DNA from: a virus | Strand: one strand, 5' to 3' | DNA length: 10,762 nucleotides | Virus genome (UHGV): UHGV-0242546 | Shown here: in pieces, positions 1,054 to 8,466 of the stretch | Layout: the number at the start of each line of letters is the position of its first letter | Numbering within the stretch: position 1 is the stretch's first letter | Notes under the pieces: model-generated | Database searches by the model: none | What the model was told of the DNA's origin: nothing | Seen by the model: only the letters and a program-made list of their open reading frames with translations | Translations under genes and position numbers: made by a program

Positions 1054-1065
1054 AGGTCGCCGCCC
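1054..1065 (-). other. cosN: 12-nt cohesive-end site (GGGCGGCGACCT on the minus strand), flanked by a cosQ-like sequence at about 1066-1100
   Basis: Plus strand 1054-1065 is AGGTCGCCGCCC, the reverse complement of the lambda cohesive end GGGCGGCGACCT. The flanking minus-strand sequence GGGTCCTTTCCGGTGATCCAGACCGTTACG|GGGCGGCGACCT|CGCGGGTTTTCGCTATTTATGAAAATTTT matches the lambda right-end/left-end junction as recalled. Confidence 0.85.
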
Positions 1066-1288
1066 CGTAACGGTCTGGATCACCGGAAAGGACCCGCCAA
1101 CGACTTTCGCGTGCAGGCATTAAAAATTTTGCAGTTCCATGCCTAGTTGAAACCTCGATTTCTATAACATCCAATTTTGTAAATTTAGATATAGCTCAAC
1201 TTTTCCCAATGTTTTCAAGTGTATAAAAACAATTGGCGTTACGCCATAACACTATACTTAGGATAAGTAAAGATTTTAAGGAGTTTTA

Positions 1289-2356
1289 ATGAGTCAACAT
1301 CAATATTATCCACAGCTGAAATGGAAGCCTGCTGAATATGAATCTCTGATGCTTTTAGATCAAACTACGCTCTCTGGTTTTACTCCGATCATTACCATTC
1401 CAGACATAGACTGGGATTATGAAAACGAATGCTACAAGAAGAGTTTGAGTTCTTACTTATCTGACTTCGGTATTAACCTTGCGGCATCCTGGAAAGCCAA
1501 TCGTCCTGTTTTGCTGGATGTTAAATATTTAGATAAACATGGTTCGAGCCGCCATCATCCTCTAGATATGTGTATCCAAGATGCTAGAGTAAATGGTAAG
1601 GAAATTATCCCTGTTGTTTCTCCCGCATATTCAACAAACTATATACATGCTGTTCAACGCAACTTAATCAATGGGCTCGCTATATCTATCACCCCCCAGA
1701 CATGGCACCAATTCACAAGTCTGGTTAACCACTTAAATATTCATCCTAGTTTAATTGATGTAATCATTGATTTTGGAGATATTCAAAACGCAACTGATAG
1801 TTTAAAACAACAAGCATTAAGCATGGTCAACACATTATCAGGCCAAGCTCCGTGGAGAAACTTGATTTTATCTTCAACCGCATACCCAGCATCACAGGCA
1901 GGGATACCGCAACATCAAGTTCATCATATTCCGCGCCATGAATACGATCTTTGGATGTACGTAGTACAGAATTTTAGCAATGGAAGAACGCCAAGTTTTA
2001 GTGATTATCCCACCGCTAGCTCTACCATTACGAGCGTAGACCCACGCTTCATGTCTCAGTATGTCTCAGTGAGATATTCGAACGATACCTCATGGATCTT
2101 TGTAAAAGGTACCGCAGTTAAAGGAAATGGATGGGGCCAAACTAAAAACTTATGTACTACCCTTGTTAGTTCGCCAGAGTATCAAGTCTTTGGTTCCAAA
2201 TTTAGTTGGGGGGATGATTACATTTACCAAAGATCATTAGGCGCTAACAAATCTGGCGGCTCTAAAGAATGGCGTAAAGTTGCACATACGCACCATATTA
2301 CGTTAGTCGTGAGACAGCTTTATTGGTTGGCGCAGACTCAGCCTGCCAAGCCTTAA
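1289..2356 (+). CDS. Hypothetical 355-aa protein, AT-rich cargo gene, no recognisable catalytic motif; possibly a sce7725/Beta-protein-like partner (unverified)
   Basis: Long ORF with a strong Shine-Dalgarno (TAAGGAG, 5-nt spacer) before ATG 1289. Codon usage and GC content are clearly lower than the flanking phage backbone. It lies between the lysis-operon terminator and cos, the classic lambdoid moron position (bor/lom slot). Family assignment cannot be made without a profile search. Confidence 0.8.
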   Translation: MSQHQYYPQLKWKPAEYESLMLLDQTTLSGFTPIITIPDIDWDYENECYKKSLSSYLSDFGINLAASWKANRPVLLDVKYLDKHGSSRHHPLDMCIQDARVNGKEIIPVVSPAYSTNYIHAVQRNLINGLAISITPQTWHQFTSLVNHLNIHPSLIDVIIDFGDIQNATDSLKQQALSMVNTLSGQAPWRNLILSSTAYPASQAGIPQHQVHHIPRHEYDLWMYVVQNFSNGRTPSFSDYPTASSTITSVDPRFMSQYVSVRYSNDTSWIFVKGTAVKGNGWGQTKNLCTTLVSSPEYQVFGSKFSWGDDYIYQRSLGANKSGGSKEWRKVAHTHHITLVVRQLYWLAQTQPAKP

Positions 2357-2918
2357 CTTTCCAGCCTACGCGTTTCTTTAAGGCTGTTCTGACTTCAAGC
2401 CTGAGATTCGCTATTGGAATATTTTCCGCAATAATATTCCATAACTCAAATCGGGGCTTGCTTTTGATTCCTTTGGAATAGCCCCATCGTTCAAGTACGT
2501 CGATACATTCATCTTTCCAAAGCAATTGAGCGAGCATCAATGTGTCATGGTTTCGATTAAGCTTTTCTCCACGCATGTGCTTTATAAGAATGGCGCCTTT
2601 TGGCCCAACAGAAACCGTTTTAACGCCCCACCAACCTGGGATTAACTTTAATGCTCCCTCAAGATGTTTCTCAGCTACGACAAGAGTAACCTTGTCCATT
2701 ACAGAAGAATAATGCTTGATTTGAAGAGGCAAACGCTCCAAAGAGTCATATTCACTTTTGAGCTCGTACCCGTGTATAACACCATTTATTACAGCAATGT
2801 CTGCTCTACTGGCGCCAAGGGATATGGAAAATTCATCGACCACAAGGCAGTCTGGATCTAAATGCGATTCTTTCAAAAGCTTATGATGCACCGCGAACCT
2901 AACATCTTGATCTTTCAT
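2298..2918 (-). CDS. Hypothetical 206-aa protein with a PD-(D/E)xK nuclease-like motif arrangement, AT-rich cargo gene
   Basis: Strong Shine-Dalgarno (AAGGAG, 5-nt spacer) upstream of ATG 2918. Residues ~28-54 read VVDEF...SRADIAVINGVIHGYELK, i.e. acidic residue, then D, then E-x-K with restriction-endonuclease-fold spacing. Convergent with, and overlapping by 59 nt, the 3' end of the 355-aa gene. Confidence 0.8.
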   Translation of the reverse strand: MKDQDVRFAVHHKLLKESHLDPDCLVVDEFSISLGASRADIAVINGVIHGYELKSEYDSLERLPLQIKHYSSVMDKVTLVVAEKHLEGALKLIPGWWGVKTVSVGPKGAILIKHMRGEKLNRNHDTLMLAQLLWKDECIDVLERWGYSKGIKSKPRFELWNIIAENIPIANLRLEVRTALKKRVGWKVKAWQAESAPTNKAVSRLT

Positions 2919-2980
2919 GACTTCTCCTTACTCCCTCCGTTATTGAATTATAGCGCACTGCATTTTACTGCATTTGAGAG
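2919..2980 (-). promoter_or_regulatory. Putative promoter of the 206-aa gene: perfect -10 TATAAT (plus 2947-2952) preceded by a tandem direct repeat AATGCAGT x2
   Basis: Minus strand reads ...CAAATGCAGTAAAATGCAGTGCGCTATAATTCAATAACGGAGGGAGTAAGGAGAAGTCATG. The TATAAT lies 28 nt upstream of the ATG. There is no good -35 hexamer; instead the -35 position is occupied by two tandem AATGCAGT copies, a possible regulator binding site. Confidence 0.35.
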
Positions 2981-3266
2981 ATTTGACCACTTCAATCACA
3001 AAATGCTTATCTGCAGCAACAAGATTCATAGCCATACGACTATGGTGATTACCTTTTGTCTGGAAAACTGACCATTCCACGAAGATCAGATAGGTCTATA
3101 GAATCTTGGTTTGTCATAGCGTTCGCCTTACTTTGAGATGAACCTTTGCTGCATAGGAGATCAGCCCGTCAAGGCTCACCAGCACTAACTGACTACTCAA
3201 AGGCTCATTCCAAAGGGTTTGGTTCGACGTGGTTGAGTGCACTGCGGTGCGCGGTGAAATACCTGT

Positions 3267-3300
3267 ACAAAAATGCCCCGCATCTGCGAGGCATTTTCCT
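3267..3300 (-). terminator. Rho-independent terminator downstream of Rz/Rz1 (end of the lysis cassette); hairpin is near-bidirectional
   Basis: Minus-strand RNA AAAAUGCCUCGCAGAUGCGGGGCAUUUUUGUAC forms a GC-rich stem followed by a U5 tract, about 35 nt after the Rz stop at 3335. Confidence 0.6.
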
Positions 3301-3334: not shown

Positions 3335-3772
3335 TTATTTTAAGCACTGCGTCCTGATGTACTCCTGCAGGTAGTTGACCTGCGCGGTTATCTTGTCGAT
3401 TCCACTTCGGAGACGGTAATAATTGAGTTCAGCATCTGCTGTAAGTCTTGGGCTTTCTCCATTGCCCATGCCGCTGGCTCCGGTCGTTGACTTTGCACAG
3501 GTAGCGGCGACTTGCAGGCGCTTACGCCCAGCAGAAACATCAGCACGGAGGCTTTCGATAGTCGCGTTAGCATCAGCAAGCTCCTTTGTATATCTGGCAT
3601 CGAGTTCTGCTACGTCACGTTGACGCTTCTGCATATCAGCGATTGTGGATGTGGCTTTATCGCGCTGCTCTTTGTAGGTTATGGCGTTATCACGGTAATG
3701 ATTCAGCCCCAGACTAAGCGCACCACAGGCCACCAGCAGGGCAATGATGACCACGCACAGTACGCGGTTCAT
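3335..3772 (-). CDS. Rz: Rz i-spanin (inner-membrane spanin subunit), 145 aa
   Basis: Protein starts MNRVLCVVIIALLVACGALSLGLNHYRDNAITYKEQRDKA (N-terminal TM anchor then coiled-coil periplasmic domain), the typical Rz architecture. It is the last gene of the lysis cassette and has an embedded +1-frame lipoprotein ORF. Confidence 0.85.
   Translation of the reverse strand: MNRVLCVVIIALLVACGALSLGLNHYRDNAITYKEQRDKATSTIADMQKRQRDVAELDARYTKELADANATIESLRADVSAGRKRLQVAATCAKSTTGASGMGNGESPRLTADAELNYYRLRSGIDKITAQVNYLQEYIRTQCLK
3388..3573 (-). CDS. Rz1: Rz1 o-spanin (outer-membrane lipoprotein), embedded out of frame within Rz; ~61 aa precursor
   Basis: The +1-frame ORF inside Rz encodes MLTRLSKASVLMFLLGVSACKSPLPVQSQRPEPAAW...: signal peptide with lipobox (V-S-A-C) followed by a proline-rich mature peptide, as in lambda Rz1. 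The ORF track gives the longer version (3388-3600); the start at the second Met is chosen on signal-peptide logic. Confidence 0.7.
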   Translation of the reverse strand: MLTRLSKASVLMFLLGVSACKSPLPVQSQRPEPAAWAMEKAQDLQQMLNSIITVSEVESTR

Positions 3773-7463: not shown

Positions 7464-7469
7464 GTCCAT

Positions 7470-7705
7470 AAGAAAGCCCCTCCGGAGAGGGGCTAAAGCC
7501 GCGTATCTGTATCATCATGCACATGGTGCCGGGTGCCTCCCGGTGAGTTCAGCCCGGTGCCACTAAACCCGCGTCATTCTCGTTTTGATAATCAGAGATT
7601 ATACCGTCACCAGTCGCCCCTCCGCTCAGGGGGATTCACCATGCGAAATTTTTTTAACAAATGCCCAGTCTGACAGGCAACTGTCAACTTACTGAATTGT
7701 GAGCA
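7470..7705. repeat. Direct repeat copy A of a ~230-bp structured non-coding element
   Basis: Shares conserved blocks with copy B, in the same order with divergent spacers: AGAAAGCCCCTCCGGAGAGGGGCT, CATGGTGCCGGGTGCCTCCCGGTGA(G/A)TTCAG, GCCCCTCCGC(T/A)CAGGGGGATTCACCATGC, TTTTAACAAA, CTGAATTGTGAG. Confidence 0.7.
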
Positions 7706-7767: not shown

Positions 7768-7956
7768 TGGAAGGATAGCGGTCATGTGATGCCGGTTTCC
7801 CGGTAACTCAGCACCGGTATCTGAGTCAACGTTTTCTCTACTGGGTCATTTCCGATACGCCCTGCCTGCTGACAGGCTTTCATCACATCTGAAAATATAG
7901 CACCCTGACTGATACTGTAGTACCTAAGGTTCCAGAAACTGTGATGTATCCGGCAC

Positions 7957-8175
7957 AGAAAAGCCCCTCCGGAGAGGGGCTGGAGAGTGGCGCTATGTGC
8001 CATTGCATGGTGCCGGGTGCCTCCCGGTGAATTCAGTACCAGCACCTGAATCCGCGATTATCCCATATACCTACTCGCTGATTGCCCCTCCGCACAGGGG
8101 GATTCACCATGCCAGTTTCTTTTAACAAACTCCCCGCAAACCAGACAACAGTCAACCGCCTGAATTGTGAGACAT
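7957..8175. repeat. Direct repeat copy B of the ~230-bp structured non-coding element
   Basis: See copy A. Same conserved blocks in the same order, immediately downstream (in transcription sense) of tRNA argO and its terminator. Confidence 0.7.
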
Positions 8176-8216: not shown

Positions 8217-8293
8217 TGGCGCGTTGTACTGGATTCGAACCAGTGACCGATTGCTTAGAAGGCAATTGCTCTGTCCGGCTGAGCTAACAACGC
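8217..8293 (-). tRNA. argO: tRNA-Arg (anticodon UCU, reads AGA), phage argO-like
   Basis: Minus strand GCGTTGTTAGCTCAGCCGGACAGAGCAATTGCCTTCTAAGCAATCGGTCACTGGTTCGAATCCAGTACAACGCGCCA folds as a canonical cloverleaf: 7-bp acceptor stem, GCTC/GAGC D-stem, anticodon loop CTTCTAA, T-loop TTCGAAT, encoded CCA. Confidence 0.9.
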
Positions 8294-8306
8294 AGGATAC
8301 AGATAA

Positions 8307-8383
8307 TGGACCGCCTTCGGGGACCCGAACTCCGCGCAACCAGCTTCGAAGGCTGGCGCTCTTTCCTGATGAGCTAATGGCGG
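8307..8383 (-). tRNA. argN: tRNA-Arg-like (anticodon UCG as read, would decode CGA), phage argN-like, with non-canonical features
   Basis: Minus strand CCGCCATTAGCTCATCAGGAAAGAGCGCCAGCCTTCGAAGCTGGTTGCGCGGAGTTCGGGTCCCCGAAGGCGGTCCA. Cloverleaf is recognisable (GCTC/GAGC D-stem, anticodon stem CCAGC/GCTGG, loop CTTCGAA, encoded CCA), but it has an A-A mismatch in the acceptor stem, one T-stem mismatch and G instead of the conserved A58. Confidence 0.7.
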
Positions 8384-8390
8384 TATGTGA

Positions 8391-8466
8391 TGGTGGCCCT
8401 TGCTGGATTTGAACCAGCGACCTGGCGATTATGAGTCGCTCGCTCTCACCACTGAGCTAAAGGGCC
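8391..8466 (-). tRNA. ileZ: tRNA-Ile2 (anticodon CAU, lysidine-type, reads AUA), phage ileZ-like
   Basis: Minus strand GGCCCTTTAGCTCAGTGGTGAGAGCGAGCGACTCATAATCGCCAGGTCGCTGGTTCAAATCCAGCAAGGGCCACCA is near-identical to E. coli tRNA-Ile2 (ileX) as I recall it; anticodon loop CTCATAA. Confidence 0.9.

What the first reader, a model, noticed from the sequence alone, without database searches (positions are those of the whole stretch)
2919..2980. Promoter of the 206-aa gene: perfect TATAAT without a -35 but with tandem AATGCAGT repeats
A consensus -10 (TATAAT) sits at the right distance from the Shine-Dalgarno and ATG of the nuclease-like gene. The -35 position lacks a TTGACA-like hexamer and is instead occupied by two tandem copies of AATGCAGT. 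This suggests activator-dependent or otherwise regulated expression, which would fit a potentially toxic effector.
Basis: seen in the sequence. Interest (0 to 1): 0.45.

Follow-up and report, generated by a model that had tools for sequence, protein, structure and literature searches.

The report
Conserved promoter of a prophage nuclease-like gene
The flagged stretch is a real, strongly conserved promoter region that travels with a two-gene, phage-defence-like cassette inside an E. coli prophage, but it looks like an ordinary self-sufficient promoter (probably two overlapping ones), not one that needs a special activator bound to the repeats.

Summary
The gene is a homologue of satellite phage P4 cII (sce7726 family, PD-(D/E)XK nuclease fold). 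It converges on a P4 beta-like gene. The pair forms a low-GC cassette lying between Rz and cos of a lambdoid prophage. Ten diverged lineages carry a 43-nt core that is 72-86% identical to E. coli (Proteus 56%), while fourfold synonymous sites are only 32-51% identical, so the region is under selection. The activator reading is not supported. A complete sigma70-type promoter (TGGTCA-16-TAAAAT, 2989-2962) overlaps the repeats. Its nine consensus-matching bases are invariant in all ten lineages, and its three non-matching bases are the ones that vary. The 8-mer duplication is perfect only in the E. coli/E. albertii allele (5-7 of 8 elsewhere). No second copy occurs in the 41 kb of prophage examined. 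The -35-less TATAAT has -14G/-13C and an AT-rich discriminator, the profile of sigmaS-preferred promoters. Verdict: an ordinary cassette-borne promoter region, probably two overlapping promoters. A regulator site on the repeats is not excluded. Low interest.

The parts
2984..2989 (-). -35 hexamer TGGTCA of candidate promoter P1
   Evidence: Promoter scan. In ten lineages it reads T[GA]G[CT]CA: the four consensus-matching bases are invariant and the two non-matching bases vary.
2962..2967 (-). -10 hexamer TAAAAT of P1, always 16 nt after the -35; predicted start about 2954-2956
   Evidence: It reads TA[A/G/C]AAT in all ten lineages, with only the third position varying. It is made of the last base of repeat copy 1, the AA spacer and the first three bases of copy 2.
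It has no -35, has -14G/-13C and the discriminator TCAATA; predicted start about 2940-2941
   Evidence: Seven of ten lineages have TATAAT; the others have GATAAT (Providencia), TATGAT (Proteus) and TATAAC (Pectobacterium). The element stays 24-28 nt from the ATG, even in Proteus, which has a 5-nt deletion between the two -10 elements.
2967..2975 (-). Direct repeat copy 1, AAATGCAGT
   Evidence: AAT, the A at 8-mer position 6 and the final T are invariant. The copy lies in the P1 spacer and on the -35 position of P2.
2957..2965 (-). Direct repeat copy 2, AAATGCAGT
   Evidence: Position 6 of the 8-mer is A in E. coli, L085 and L086, T in most other lineages and G in Pectobacterium.
2924..2929 (-). 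Shine-Dalgarno AAGGAG, 5 nt before the ATG (a second GGAGGG lies at 2938-2933)
   Evidence: The leader is less structured than shuffled sequences (z = +1.68).
2298..2918 (-). 206-aa gene: sce7726 / Phage_P4_cII family, PD-(D/E)XK nuclease fold plus a C-terminal helical domain
1289..2356 (+). 355-aa Beta_protein gene, convergent with the 206-aa gene and overlapping it by 59 bp
   Evidence: PF14350 E=8e-56. PADLOC 'beta' and PD-Lambda-2_C. The same convergent pair occurs in all relatives examined.
2990..3006 (-). Upstream edge of the mobile cassette in the E. coli/Klebsiella/Edwardsiella group (TTTTGTGATTGAAG)
   Evidence: Homology among genera starts here. A second group (Pectobacterium, Providencia, Proteus, L085, L086) instead shares ACAATTGCCCT directly upstream of the same -35.
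3049..3117 (-). 22-codon ORF starting at the former rha start codon; homology to P22 ends immediately after the ATG
   Evidence: No match for 2990-3130 in the phage collection.
3270..3297 (.). 13-bp-stem hairpin with flanking A/T runs, 38 nt after the Rz stop (terminator-like on either strand)
   Evidence: inverted repeat I2. Conserved with the P22 Rz-rha spacer.
1054..1065 (-). Lambda-type cosN (GGGCGGCGACCT) bordering the cassette on its other side

Best explanation
Positions 2919-3006 (minus strand) are the cassette-borne promoter and leader of a P4 cII-like, nuclease-fold gene. They belong to a two-gene beta/cII cassette inserted between Rz and cos of a lambdoid prophage. The region holds two overlapping core promoters whose -10 elements start 15 bp apart. 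P1 (TGGTCA-16-TAAAAT, GC-rich discriminator) is a normal sigma70 promoter predicted to start near 2955. P2 (TATAAT with -14G/-13C, no -35, AT-rich discriminator) is a -35-independent promoter of the type preferred by sigmaS holoenzyme, predicted to start near 2940. RNA polymerase alone should therefore express the gene from the prophage. In addition, Q-antiterminated late transcription runs through it in the sense direction. The AATGCAGT duplication is largely built from these core elements: P1's -10 is assembled from the junction of the two copies. The duplication is not an activator site. Shown: the sequence features, their conservation and the identity of the gene. Inferred: that both hexamer sets are used, the start sites and the sigma preference.
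For: The scan finds TGGTCA-16-TAAAAT as the only promoter-like site on this strand between 2200 and 3900. Ten lineages with 77-100% protein identity, from E. coli, Klebsiella, Edwardsiella, Pectobacterium, Providencia, Proteus and metagenomic or viral contigs, keep T.G.CA-16-TA.AAT. All nine consensus-matching positions are invariant and the three non-matching positions are the ones that vary (P about 9e-5, given that 20 of 43 columns are invariant). The core is 72-86% identical to E. coli while fourfold synonymous sites are 32-51% identical. Homology between cassettes in different contexts begins just upstream of this -35. The P2 hexamer stays 24-28 nt from the ATG in every lineage, even across the Proteus deletion. 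KCTATAH occurs on the sense strand upstream of cII-family genes in 17 of 47 sequence clusters, against 3 on the antisense strand and 3.7 in shuffles, and P4 cII has TTGCTATAAT 30 nt before its ATG. SigmaS-preferred promoters are described as having no conserved -35, a TNGC motif that includes -13C, and AT-rich discriminators with T at -6 and -2 (PMC3141248). The leader is unstructured and carries a strong SD. Cassette GC is 37-44%, against 47-55% in the flanks.
Against: No transcription start has been mapped, and no data for this locus were found. P1 scores only 9 of 12, and in a crude weight matrix built from remembered frequencies P1 and P2 score about equally. Conservation of AAT and A inside P1's spacer (columns 16-18 and 21) is not explained by either core promoter. 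An imperfect direct repeat (5-7 of 8) persists in every lineage, which would also fit tolerant half-sites of a regulator. The KCTATAH motif was defined after seeing the data, and many of the 47 clusters are homologous to one another.
Confidence: 0.55

Rival explanations
1. Operator reading: the 10-bp-phased AAT(G/A)CNGT units are half-sites for a repressor or autoregulator. Candidates are the cII-like protein (through its C-terminal helical domain), the beta protein, or a nucleoid protein such as H-NS acting on the phased A-tracts. Binding would cover P1's -10 and P2's spacer and keep the nuclease-like gene low until a trigger arrives.
For: An imperfect repeat persists in all ten lineages (5-7 of 8; 8 of 8 in E. 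coli). Invariant AAT and A inside P1's spacer have no core-promoter explanation. The repeat overlaps both promoters. The units TCAAAT, TCAAAT and TAAAAT are spaced 9-10 bp apart. P4 gop and beta are reported to behave like a toxin-antitoxin pair (PMC9122126), and such loci are commonly autoregulated (general knowledge). The model has a C-terminal helical domain with a weak SAP-domain-like match. Some databases name homologues 'regulatory protein'.
Against: The bases shared by both copies and invariant are only AAT and T, and in copy 2 the AAT is P1's -10. Position 6 of copy 2 varies freely (A/T/G). No related motif lies upstream of beta or elsewhere in the 41 kb of prophage examined. No DNA-binding activity is known for either protein.
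Confidence: 0.2
2. One reading: TATAAT is the only -10. It cannot work without help, and an activator bound to the tandem repeats at the -35 position recruits RNA polymerase, as lambda CII does at TTGC-N6-TTGC or PhoB does at pho boxes.
For: There is no -35 and no TGn for the TATAAT. The direct repeats have a one-helical-turn period and lie at -34..-17. ATGC-N6-ATGC superficially resembles the lambda CII site TTGC-N6-TTGC (own knowledge), and the host element is a lambdoid prophage.
Against: The tetrads are ATGC, and ATAC or ATGA in relatives, not TTGC. By my recollection of the pRE sequence, they lie 6 bp closer to the -10 than at pRE. The cassette also sits in a defence island, next to tail genes and in P4-like elements, where no lambda-type CII would be expected to accompany it. 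The perfect repeat is allele-specific. A complete sigma70 promoter overlaps the site, so a protein bound there would block P1. The -13C and AT-rich discriminator give an activator-free explanation. The pho-box period (11 bp) and orientation do not fit.
Confidence: 0.12
3. No autonomous promoter: the gene is expressed only by read-through of the Q-antiterminated late transcript, or from the old rha signals upstream. On this reading the hexamers are AT-rich coincidence.
For: The gene lies on the late-operon strand, downstream of Rz. The rha ribosome-binding site and ATG are retained upstream. TATAAT-like strings are common in 42%-GC DNA.
Against: The core is 72-86% conserved while synonymous sites are 32-51% identical. 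Conservation follows the hexamer positions. The same block accompanies the gene in non-prophage contexts. TATAAT is rarer than expected in the window.
Confidence: 0.05

Closest known systems
Satellite phage P4 cII gene and its upstream region (P4 gop-beta-cII locus; DefenseFinder/PADLOC 'gop_beta_cll')
   Same: The protein family is the same (NF033832/PF26915). The partner is a Beta_protein gene, arranged convergently (beta -> <- cII). The locus lies next to cos. A GCTATAAT -10 sits about 30 nt before the ATG with only a weak -35. P4 gop-beta-cII protects against lambda and P1 (PMC9122126).
   Different: Identity is only 27% (cII) and 22% (beta). There is no gop gene in the window, the 41 kb of prophage examined or any related locus fetched. 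P4 has a true TGn extended -10, whereas this locus has CGC. P4 cII is 264 aa against 206 aa here. The host element is a lambdoid prophage, not a satellite.
Phage morons (own knowledge: autonomous promoter-gene units such as lambda bor and lom, and the HK97 morons)
   Same: Low-GC DNA is inserted between conserved late genes (here replacing rha between Rz and cos). It carries its own promoter(s) that can be expressed from the prophage.
   Different: It is a convergent two-gene unit with two promoters and no internal terminator. The same cassette is also found outside phages.
SigmaS-preferred, -35-independent promoters (Maciag et al. 2011, PMC3141248)
   Same: For P2: no -35, -14G/-13C immediately upstream of the -10, and an AT-rich discriminator with T at -6 and -2.
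   Different: rpoS dependence is untested. -16 is G rather than the T of TNGC. -13 is T or G in three of ten lineages.
Lambda CII-activated promoters pRE, pI and paQ (own knowledge: TTGC-N6-TTGC flanking a poor -35)
   Same: Tetrad direct repeats with a 10-bp period at a promoter that lacks a -35.
   Different: The tetrad sequence is ATGC/ATAC, not TTGC. The repeats are 6 bp closer to the -10 (by my recollection of pRE). The cassette occurs in non-lambdoid contexts.
Overlapping dual promoters such as galP1/P2 (own knowledge)
   Same: Two -10 elements less than two helical turns apart, so polymerase can occupy only one at a time. This leaves room for a factor or a sigma to switch between the two starts.
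   Different: At gal, both promoters are extended -10 promoters switched by CRP. Here no CRP site is well placed: a TGTGA half-site at 3000-2996 has a poor partner and is centred near -37.5 relative to P1 and -52.5 relative to P2.

Membership tests
Sigma70 promoter with -35 and -10 elements (P1) | -35 hexamer with at least 4 of 6 matches, spacer of 16-18 nt, -10 hexamer with A at position 2 and T at position 6 | tested here: met
   TGGTCA-16-TAAAAT, 9 of 12 matches. The spacer length and all nine consensus-matching bases are invariant in ten lineages.
Sigma70 promoter with -35 and -10 elements (P1) | Transcript 5' end 6-8 nt downstream of the -10 | not testable with these tools
   No start-site data were found. 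Predicted start 2954-2956.
Extended -10 promoter (TGnTATAAT) | TG at -15/-14 | tested here: not met
   CGC precedes TATAAT; the nearest TG is at -17/-16. P4 cII and the 50-57% subfamily do have TGC before TATAA.
SigmaS-preferred promoter (P2) | No conserved -35; C at -13 (TNGC motif); AT-rich discriminator | tested here: met
   AAATGC lies at the -35 position. The sequence is GC-TATAAT-TCAATA. Criteria are from PMC3141248. -13C is present in 7 of 10 lineages.
SigmaS-preferred promoter (P2) | Lower expression in an rpoS mutant, or preferential transcription by sigmaS holoenzyme in vitro | not testable with these tools
   Requires an experiment.
Lambda CII-dependent promoter | TTGC-N6-TTGC flanking the -35 region, second tetrad about 13 nt before the -10 (own knowledge) | tested here: not met
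   The sequence is ATGC-N6-ATGC, with 7 nt before TATAAT. Relatives have ATAC or ATGA.
PhoB pho box | CTGTCAT direct repeats with an 11-bp period, in the gene's orientation, 10 bp upstream of the -10 (own knowledge) | tested here: not met
   The similar string CTGCAT-TTTA-CTGCAT is on the opposite strand and has a 10-bp period.
sce7726 / Phage_P4_cII protein family | Score above the curated cutoff of NF033832; PF26915 domain | tested here: met
   184.1 bits against a cutoff of 70. PF26915 is recorded on all homologues. The local Pfam copy returned no family for this protein.
gop-beta-cII anti-phage system | All three genes (gop, beta, cII) present | tested here: not met
   Beta and cII are present and convergent, as in P4. 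tblastn with P4 gop finds nothing in the window, in the 41 kb of prophage examined or in any related locus fetched.
gop-beta-cII anti-phage system | Protection against phage infection | not testable with these tools
   Shown for P4-type gop-beta-cII only (PMC9122126).
Phage moron | Insertion between conserved phage genes, deviant base composition, own promoter | tested here: met
   Homology to P22 ends at the rha ATG. GC is 37-44% against 47-55% in the flanks. A conserved promoter core is present. That the promoter is active is inferred.

The most novel reading that the evidence does not exclude
The phased AAT(G/A)CNGT units could be half-sites for a cassette-encoded factor, either the nuclease-fold cII-like protein (through its C-terminal helical domain) or beta. 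Binding would occlude P1's -10 while sitting at the -35 position of P2. That would switch transcription between two overlapping promoters and couple expression of the nuclease-like effector to infection or growth state. It would be a self-contained promoter switch that travels with a gop-less beta/cII defence module.
Probability: 0.1. Interest if true: 0.5.

Novelty: new member of a known kind. Interest (0 to 1): 0.2.

Why it matters
If correct, the finding adds little. It is an uncharacterised but ordinary promoter region of the kind expected in front of a prophage accessory gene. Its practical value is as a map for anyone who clones this gop-less beta/cII module under its native promoter. 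The fragment should extend upstream to at least about 3006, and both hexamer pairs should be kept. The comparison also gives two cheap tests: rpoS dependence of the start near 2940, and the effect of the A/T polymorphism at 2959. These would settle whether the repeat means anything.

Tried and rejected
- LexA, CRP, IHF, sigma54, ArgR, Fur and TyrR sites were checked by eye against remembered consensus sequences. None fits. The TGTGA half-site at 3000-2996 has a poor partner half and is centred near -37.5 (P1) and -52.5 (P2), which are not CRP activation positions.
- The inverted repeat flanking the promoter (2939-2947 / 2991-2999) is not conserved in Klebsiella or Edwardsiella.
- RNA element in the leader: Rfam finds nothing there, and the leader folds worse than shuffled sequences.
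- An upstream alternative start codon (the 195-203-aa ORFs called in relatives) was rejected. In E. coli an in-frame TAA lies 9 nt upstream of the ATG, and the N-terminus M(K/R)DQDVR is conserved.
- Other copies of the tandem motif: none in the window beyond chance and none in the 41 kb of prophage examined. A whole-genome search was not possible with these tools.
- The sequence 2990-3130 has no match in the phage collection.
- Ghisotti et al. 1990, which reports P4 cII transcription, is not held in the library. No paper mentions the protein accessions, PF14350 or, informatively, sce7726.
- Profile search against PDB sequences gave nothing significant. The fold was assigned from the AlphaFold2 model instead.
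- The weight-matrix comparison of P1 and P2 used hexamer frequencies recalled from memory and did not separate the two.

Full report
**What is at the coordinates**

The finding concerns the minus strand. Read 5'->3' from 3003 to 2916:

TTTTGTGATTGAAG-TGGTCA-AATCTCTCAAATGCAG-TAAAAT-GCAGTGCGC-TATAAT-TCAATAACGGAGGGAGTAAGGAGAAGTC-ATG

- TATAAT is at 2952-2947, 28 nt before the ATG at 2918.
- AAGGAG is at 2929-2924.
- An in-frame TAA at 2930-2928 fixes the start codon.
- The repeat is an exact 9-mer, AAATGCAGT, at 2975-2967 and 2965-2957, with spacing 10.
- The hexamer 17 bp upstream of TATAAT is AAATGC, and no TGn motif precedes TATAAT.

On chance:
- TATAAT occurs only twice in the window, against 4.5 expected.
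- An exact 9-mer repeated at spacing 9-12 appears in 0.37% of shuffles of the 416-nt intergenic region, but in 13% of shuffles of the whole window.
- A comparable 10-nt duplication (ATGTCTCAGT x2) lies inside the neighbouring coding sequence at 2051-2070. Such duplications therefore arise in this cassette without regulatory meaning.

**Context**

The window is the late region of an E. coli lambdoid prophage. Nearly all of it is coded on the minus strand, in this order:
- DNA methyltransferase
- three tRNA genes and two STnc100 copies
- a SASA esterase
- holin, lysozyme and Rz (3335-3772)
- a hairpin at 3270-3297
- the 206-aa gene (2298-2918)
- a convergent 355-aa gene on the plus strand (1289-2356)
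- cosN (1054-1065)
- Nu1 (336-884)

Homology to the phage P22 Rz-rha spacer runs to window position 3114, immediately after the rha ATG, and then stops. From there to about 3006 lies DNA with no match in the phage collection, followed by the cassette. Cassette GC is 37-44%, against 47-55% in the flanks. This is a moron-type insertion that replaced rha. It is present at 99% identity or more in 127 of 5,426 complete E. coli genomes.

**What the gene is**

The 206-aa protein is an sce7726 family member (NF033832, 184 bits against a cutoff of 70). It matches PADLOC model 'cll' and Pfam PF26915 Phage_P4_cII. It is 27% identical to the cII protein of satellite phage P4.

The 355-aa protein is a Beta_protein (PF14350) and is 22% identical to P4 beta. 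P4 has gop and beta reading towards a convergent cII, next to cos. That trio protects against lambda and P1, and gop is reported to be toxic without beta (PMC9122126).

Here there is no gop in the window, in the 41 kb of prophage examined or in any related locus fetched. The convergent beta/cII pair alone recurs in prophages, P4-like elements and a defence island across many genera.

**Comparative test of the promoter**

I collected upstream regions from genome, viral and metagenome collections. This gave ten distinct lineages whose protein is 77-100% identical to the E. coli protein.

Fourfold-degenerate sites in the coding sequence are only 32-51% identical to E. coli, close to saturation. 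The 43 nt from TGGTCA through TATAAT are 72-86% identical, or 56% in Proteus, which has a 5-nt deletion. The region is therefore under purifying selection and is functional.

The invariant columns, written under the E. coli sequence, are:

TGGTCAAATCTCTCAAATGCAGTAAAATGCAGTGCGCTATAAT
T.G.CAA........AAT..A.TA.AAT.C..T.....AT.A.

**Two overlapping promoters**

*P1.* The scan tool, run on the E. coli sequence alone, reports one promoter-like site on this strand: TGGTCA (2989-2984), a 16-nt spacer, then TAAAAT (2967-2962).
- Across the ten lineages this element reads T[GA]G[CT]CA-16-TA[A/G/C]AAT.
- All nine positions that match the sigma70 consensus are invariant.
- The three positions that do not match are exactly the ones that vary.
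- The spacer length never changes. Given 20 invariant columns out of 43, the probability of this pattern is about 9e-5.
- Homology between cassettes in different contexts begins just upstream of this -35. Two alternative upstream blocks are found there: TTTTGTGAT.GA.G in one group and ACAATTGCCCT in the other.

- It is TATAAT in seven lineages, GATAAT in Providencia, TATGAT in Proteus and TATAAC in Pectobacterium.
- It stays 24-28 nt from the ATG, even where Proteus has lost 5 nt between the two -10 elements. It is therefore positioned relative to the gene, not relative to P1.
- It carries -14G/-13C and the discriminator TCAATA.
- Maciag et al. (PMC3141248) describe sigmaS-preferred promoters as having no conserved -35, a TNGC motif that includes -13C, and AT-rich discriminators with T at -6 and -2. 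P2 fits this profile. P1, with its -35 and GC-rich discriminator GCAGTG, fits the sigma70 profile.
- A [GT]CTATA[ACT] element occurs on the sense strand upstream of cII-family genes in 17 of 47 sequence clusters, against 3 on the antisense strand and 3.7 in shuffles. P4 cII has TTGCTATAAT 30 nt before its ATG. This motif was defined after seeing the data, and several clusters are homologous, so I treat it as supportive only.

**The repeats**

P1's -10 (TAAAAT) is assembled from the last T of copy 1, the AA between the copies and the AAT of copy 2. Copy 1 fills P1's spacer and copy 2 covers P1's discriminator.

- The 8-mer duplication is perfect only in the E. coli/E. albertii allele.
- Other lineages have, for example, AATGCAGT/AATGCTGT, AATACAGT/AATGCAGT, AATGAAGT/AATGCTGT, AATACAGT/AATACTAT and AATACAGT/AATGCGGT. 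These are 5-7 matches out of 8.
- The base that makes the E. coli repeat perfect (2959) is A, T or G elsewhere.
- No further copy exists in the window beyond chance, upstream of beta or in the 41 kb of prophage examined.

Two things remain unexplained. The AAT and A inside P1's spacer are invariant. An imperfect repeat persists in all lineages. Both could reflect inheritance plus constraints I cannot see, phased A-tracts (TCAAAT, TCAAAT and TAAAAT are spaced 9-10 bp apart), or a protein-binding site.

**Mechanism**

My best reading (confidence 0.55) is a self-sufficient, cassette-borne promoter region with two mutually exclusive core promoters. P1 is sigma70-type, with a predicted start near 2955. 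P2 is -35-independent and sigmaS-like, with a predicted start near 2940. Either start feeds an unstructured leader with a strong Shine-Dalgarno sequence.

Because the gene lies on the late-operon strand, Q-antiterminated late transcription should also read through it in the sense direction, and through beta in the antisense direction. This is an inference from gene order.

Rival readings:
- Repressor or autoregulator operator on the repeats: 0.20.
- No autonomous promoter: 0.05.

The activator model is closest to lambda CII at TTGC-N6-TTGC. However, the tetrads here are ATGC, ATAC or ATGA. By my recollection of the pRE sequence, they lie 6 bp closer to the -10 than at pRE. The cassette is also found in non-lambdoid contexts, where no lambda-type CII would be expected to accompany it.

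**Novelty and verdict**

This is an uncharacterised instance of known things: a moron-type promoter in front of a member of a named family that is related to a published defence system. I found no published start-site map for it, and the 1990 P4 paper that may describe cII transcription is not held. Interest is low (0.2). The most novel reading still open is a cassette-encoded factor that switches between the two promoters through the repeats (probability about 0.1).

Noticed in passing
window 2051-2070 (+), inside the beta gene: A second exact 10-nt tandem duplication, ATGTCTCAGT x2, lies within the coding sequence (protein ...MSQYVSV...). Together with the promoter repeat, that makes two such repeats in the window, against 0.19 expected.
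   Followed up: partly
window 2298-2356: The E. coli cII-like ORF runs 16 codons past the end seen in other genera (190 aa, ending ...WKVRA). The convergent genes therefore overlap by 59 bp here, against 11 bp in relatives. There is no terminator between them, unlike in P4. Transcriptional interference or antisense pairing between the two genes is possible.
   Followed up: partly
window 1100-1288 (+) and the equivalent region in L003, L005, L048, L051, L080-L087 and L173-L181: The region upstream of beta is also conserved across genera (TTAGATTTAGCTCAATTTTT ... GGTATAAAA), so beta has its own promoter-like block. Its TAGCTCAATTTT resembles the TAGCCAAATTTT found at the cII -35 in Pectobacterium-type cassettes. 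A shared site is possible but was not tested.
   Followed up: no
L057-L061, L095, L096, L099, L184, L187, L189-L192, L217, L219-L221 (upstream 100 nt): The subfamily of cII-like genes with 50-57% identity has a different conserved upstream layout. It consists of an A-rich tract, CGTGCTATAA (TGn-type), TTTAAAGT about 15 nt later, then a leader of about 50-70 nt ending in GGATAAAAAACGACCA just before the ATG, with no obvious Shine-Dalgarno sequence. This may be a conserved leader element.
   Followed up: no
window 1054-1065 and 1289-2918: The beta/cII cassette abuts lambda-type cosN. The P4 defence hotspot that holds gop-beta-cII is likewise described as adjacent to cos (PMC9122126). The Rz-to-cos gap of lambdoid prophages seems to be an equivalent accessory-gene slot. 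In P22 it holds rha.
   Followed up: partly
window 3049-3117 (-): The rha ribosome-binding site and ATG are retained, but the reading frame continues into unrelated sequence for 22 codons (MTNQDSIDLSDLRGMVSFPDKR*). A weak hairpin at 3044-3027 follows. The roughly 110 nt between 3006 and 3114 have no match in the phage collection.
   Followed up: partly
window 7464-7673 and 7951-8141 (-); 8220-8466 (-): Two copies of the sRNA family STnc100 and three tRNA genes lie between the methyltransferase/Q region and the SASA esterase. This is the layout seen in Stx-converting phages, but no toxin genes are present in that interval.
   Followed up: no
L001 2767-4628 (E. coli 14EC047) and L008 (E. coli 200112): In some strains the same prophage is decaying. 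In one, an IS3 element splits the small terminase gene. In another, a deletion joins the cassette's upstream region (from about window 3092) to a holin fragment. The promoter core is intact in both.
   Followed up: no
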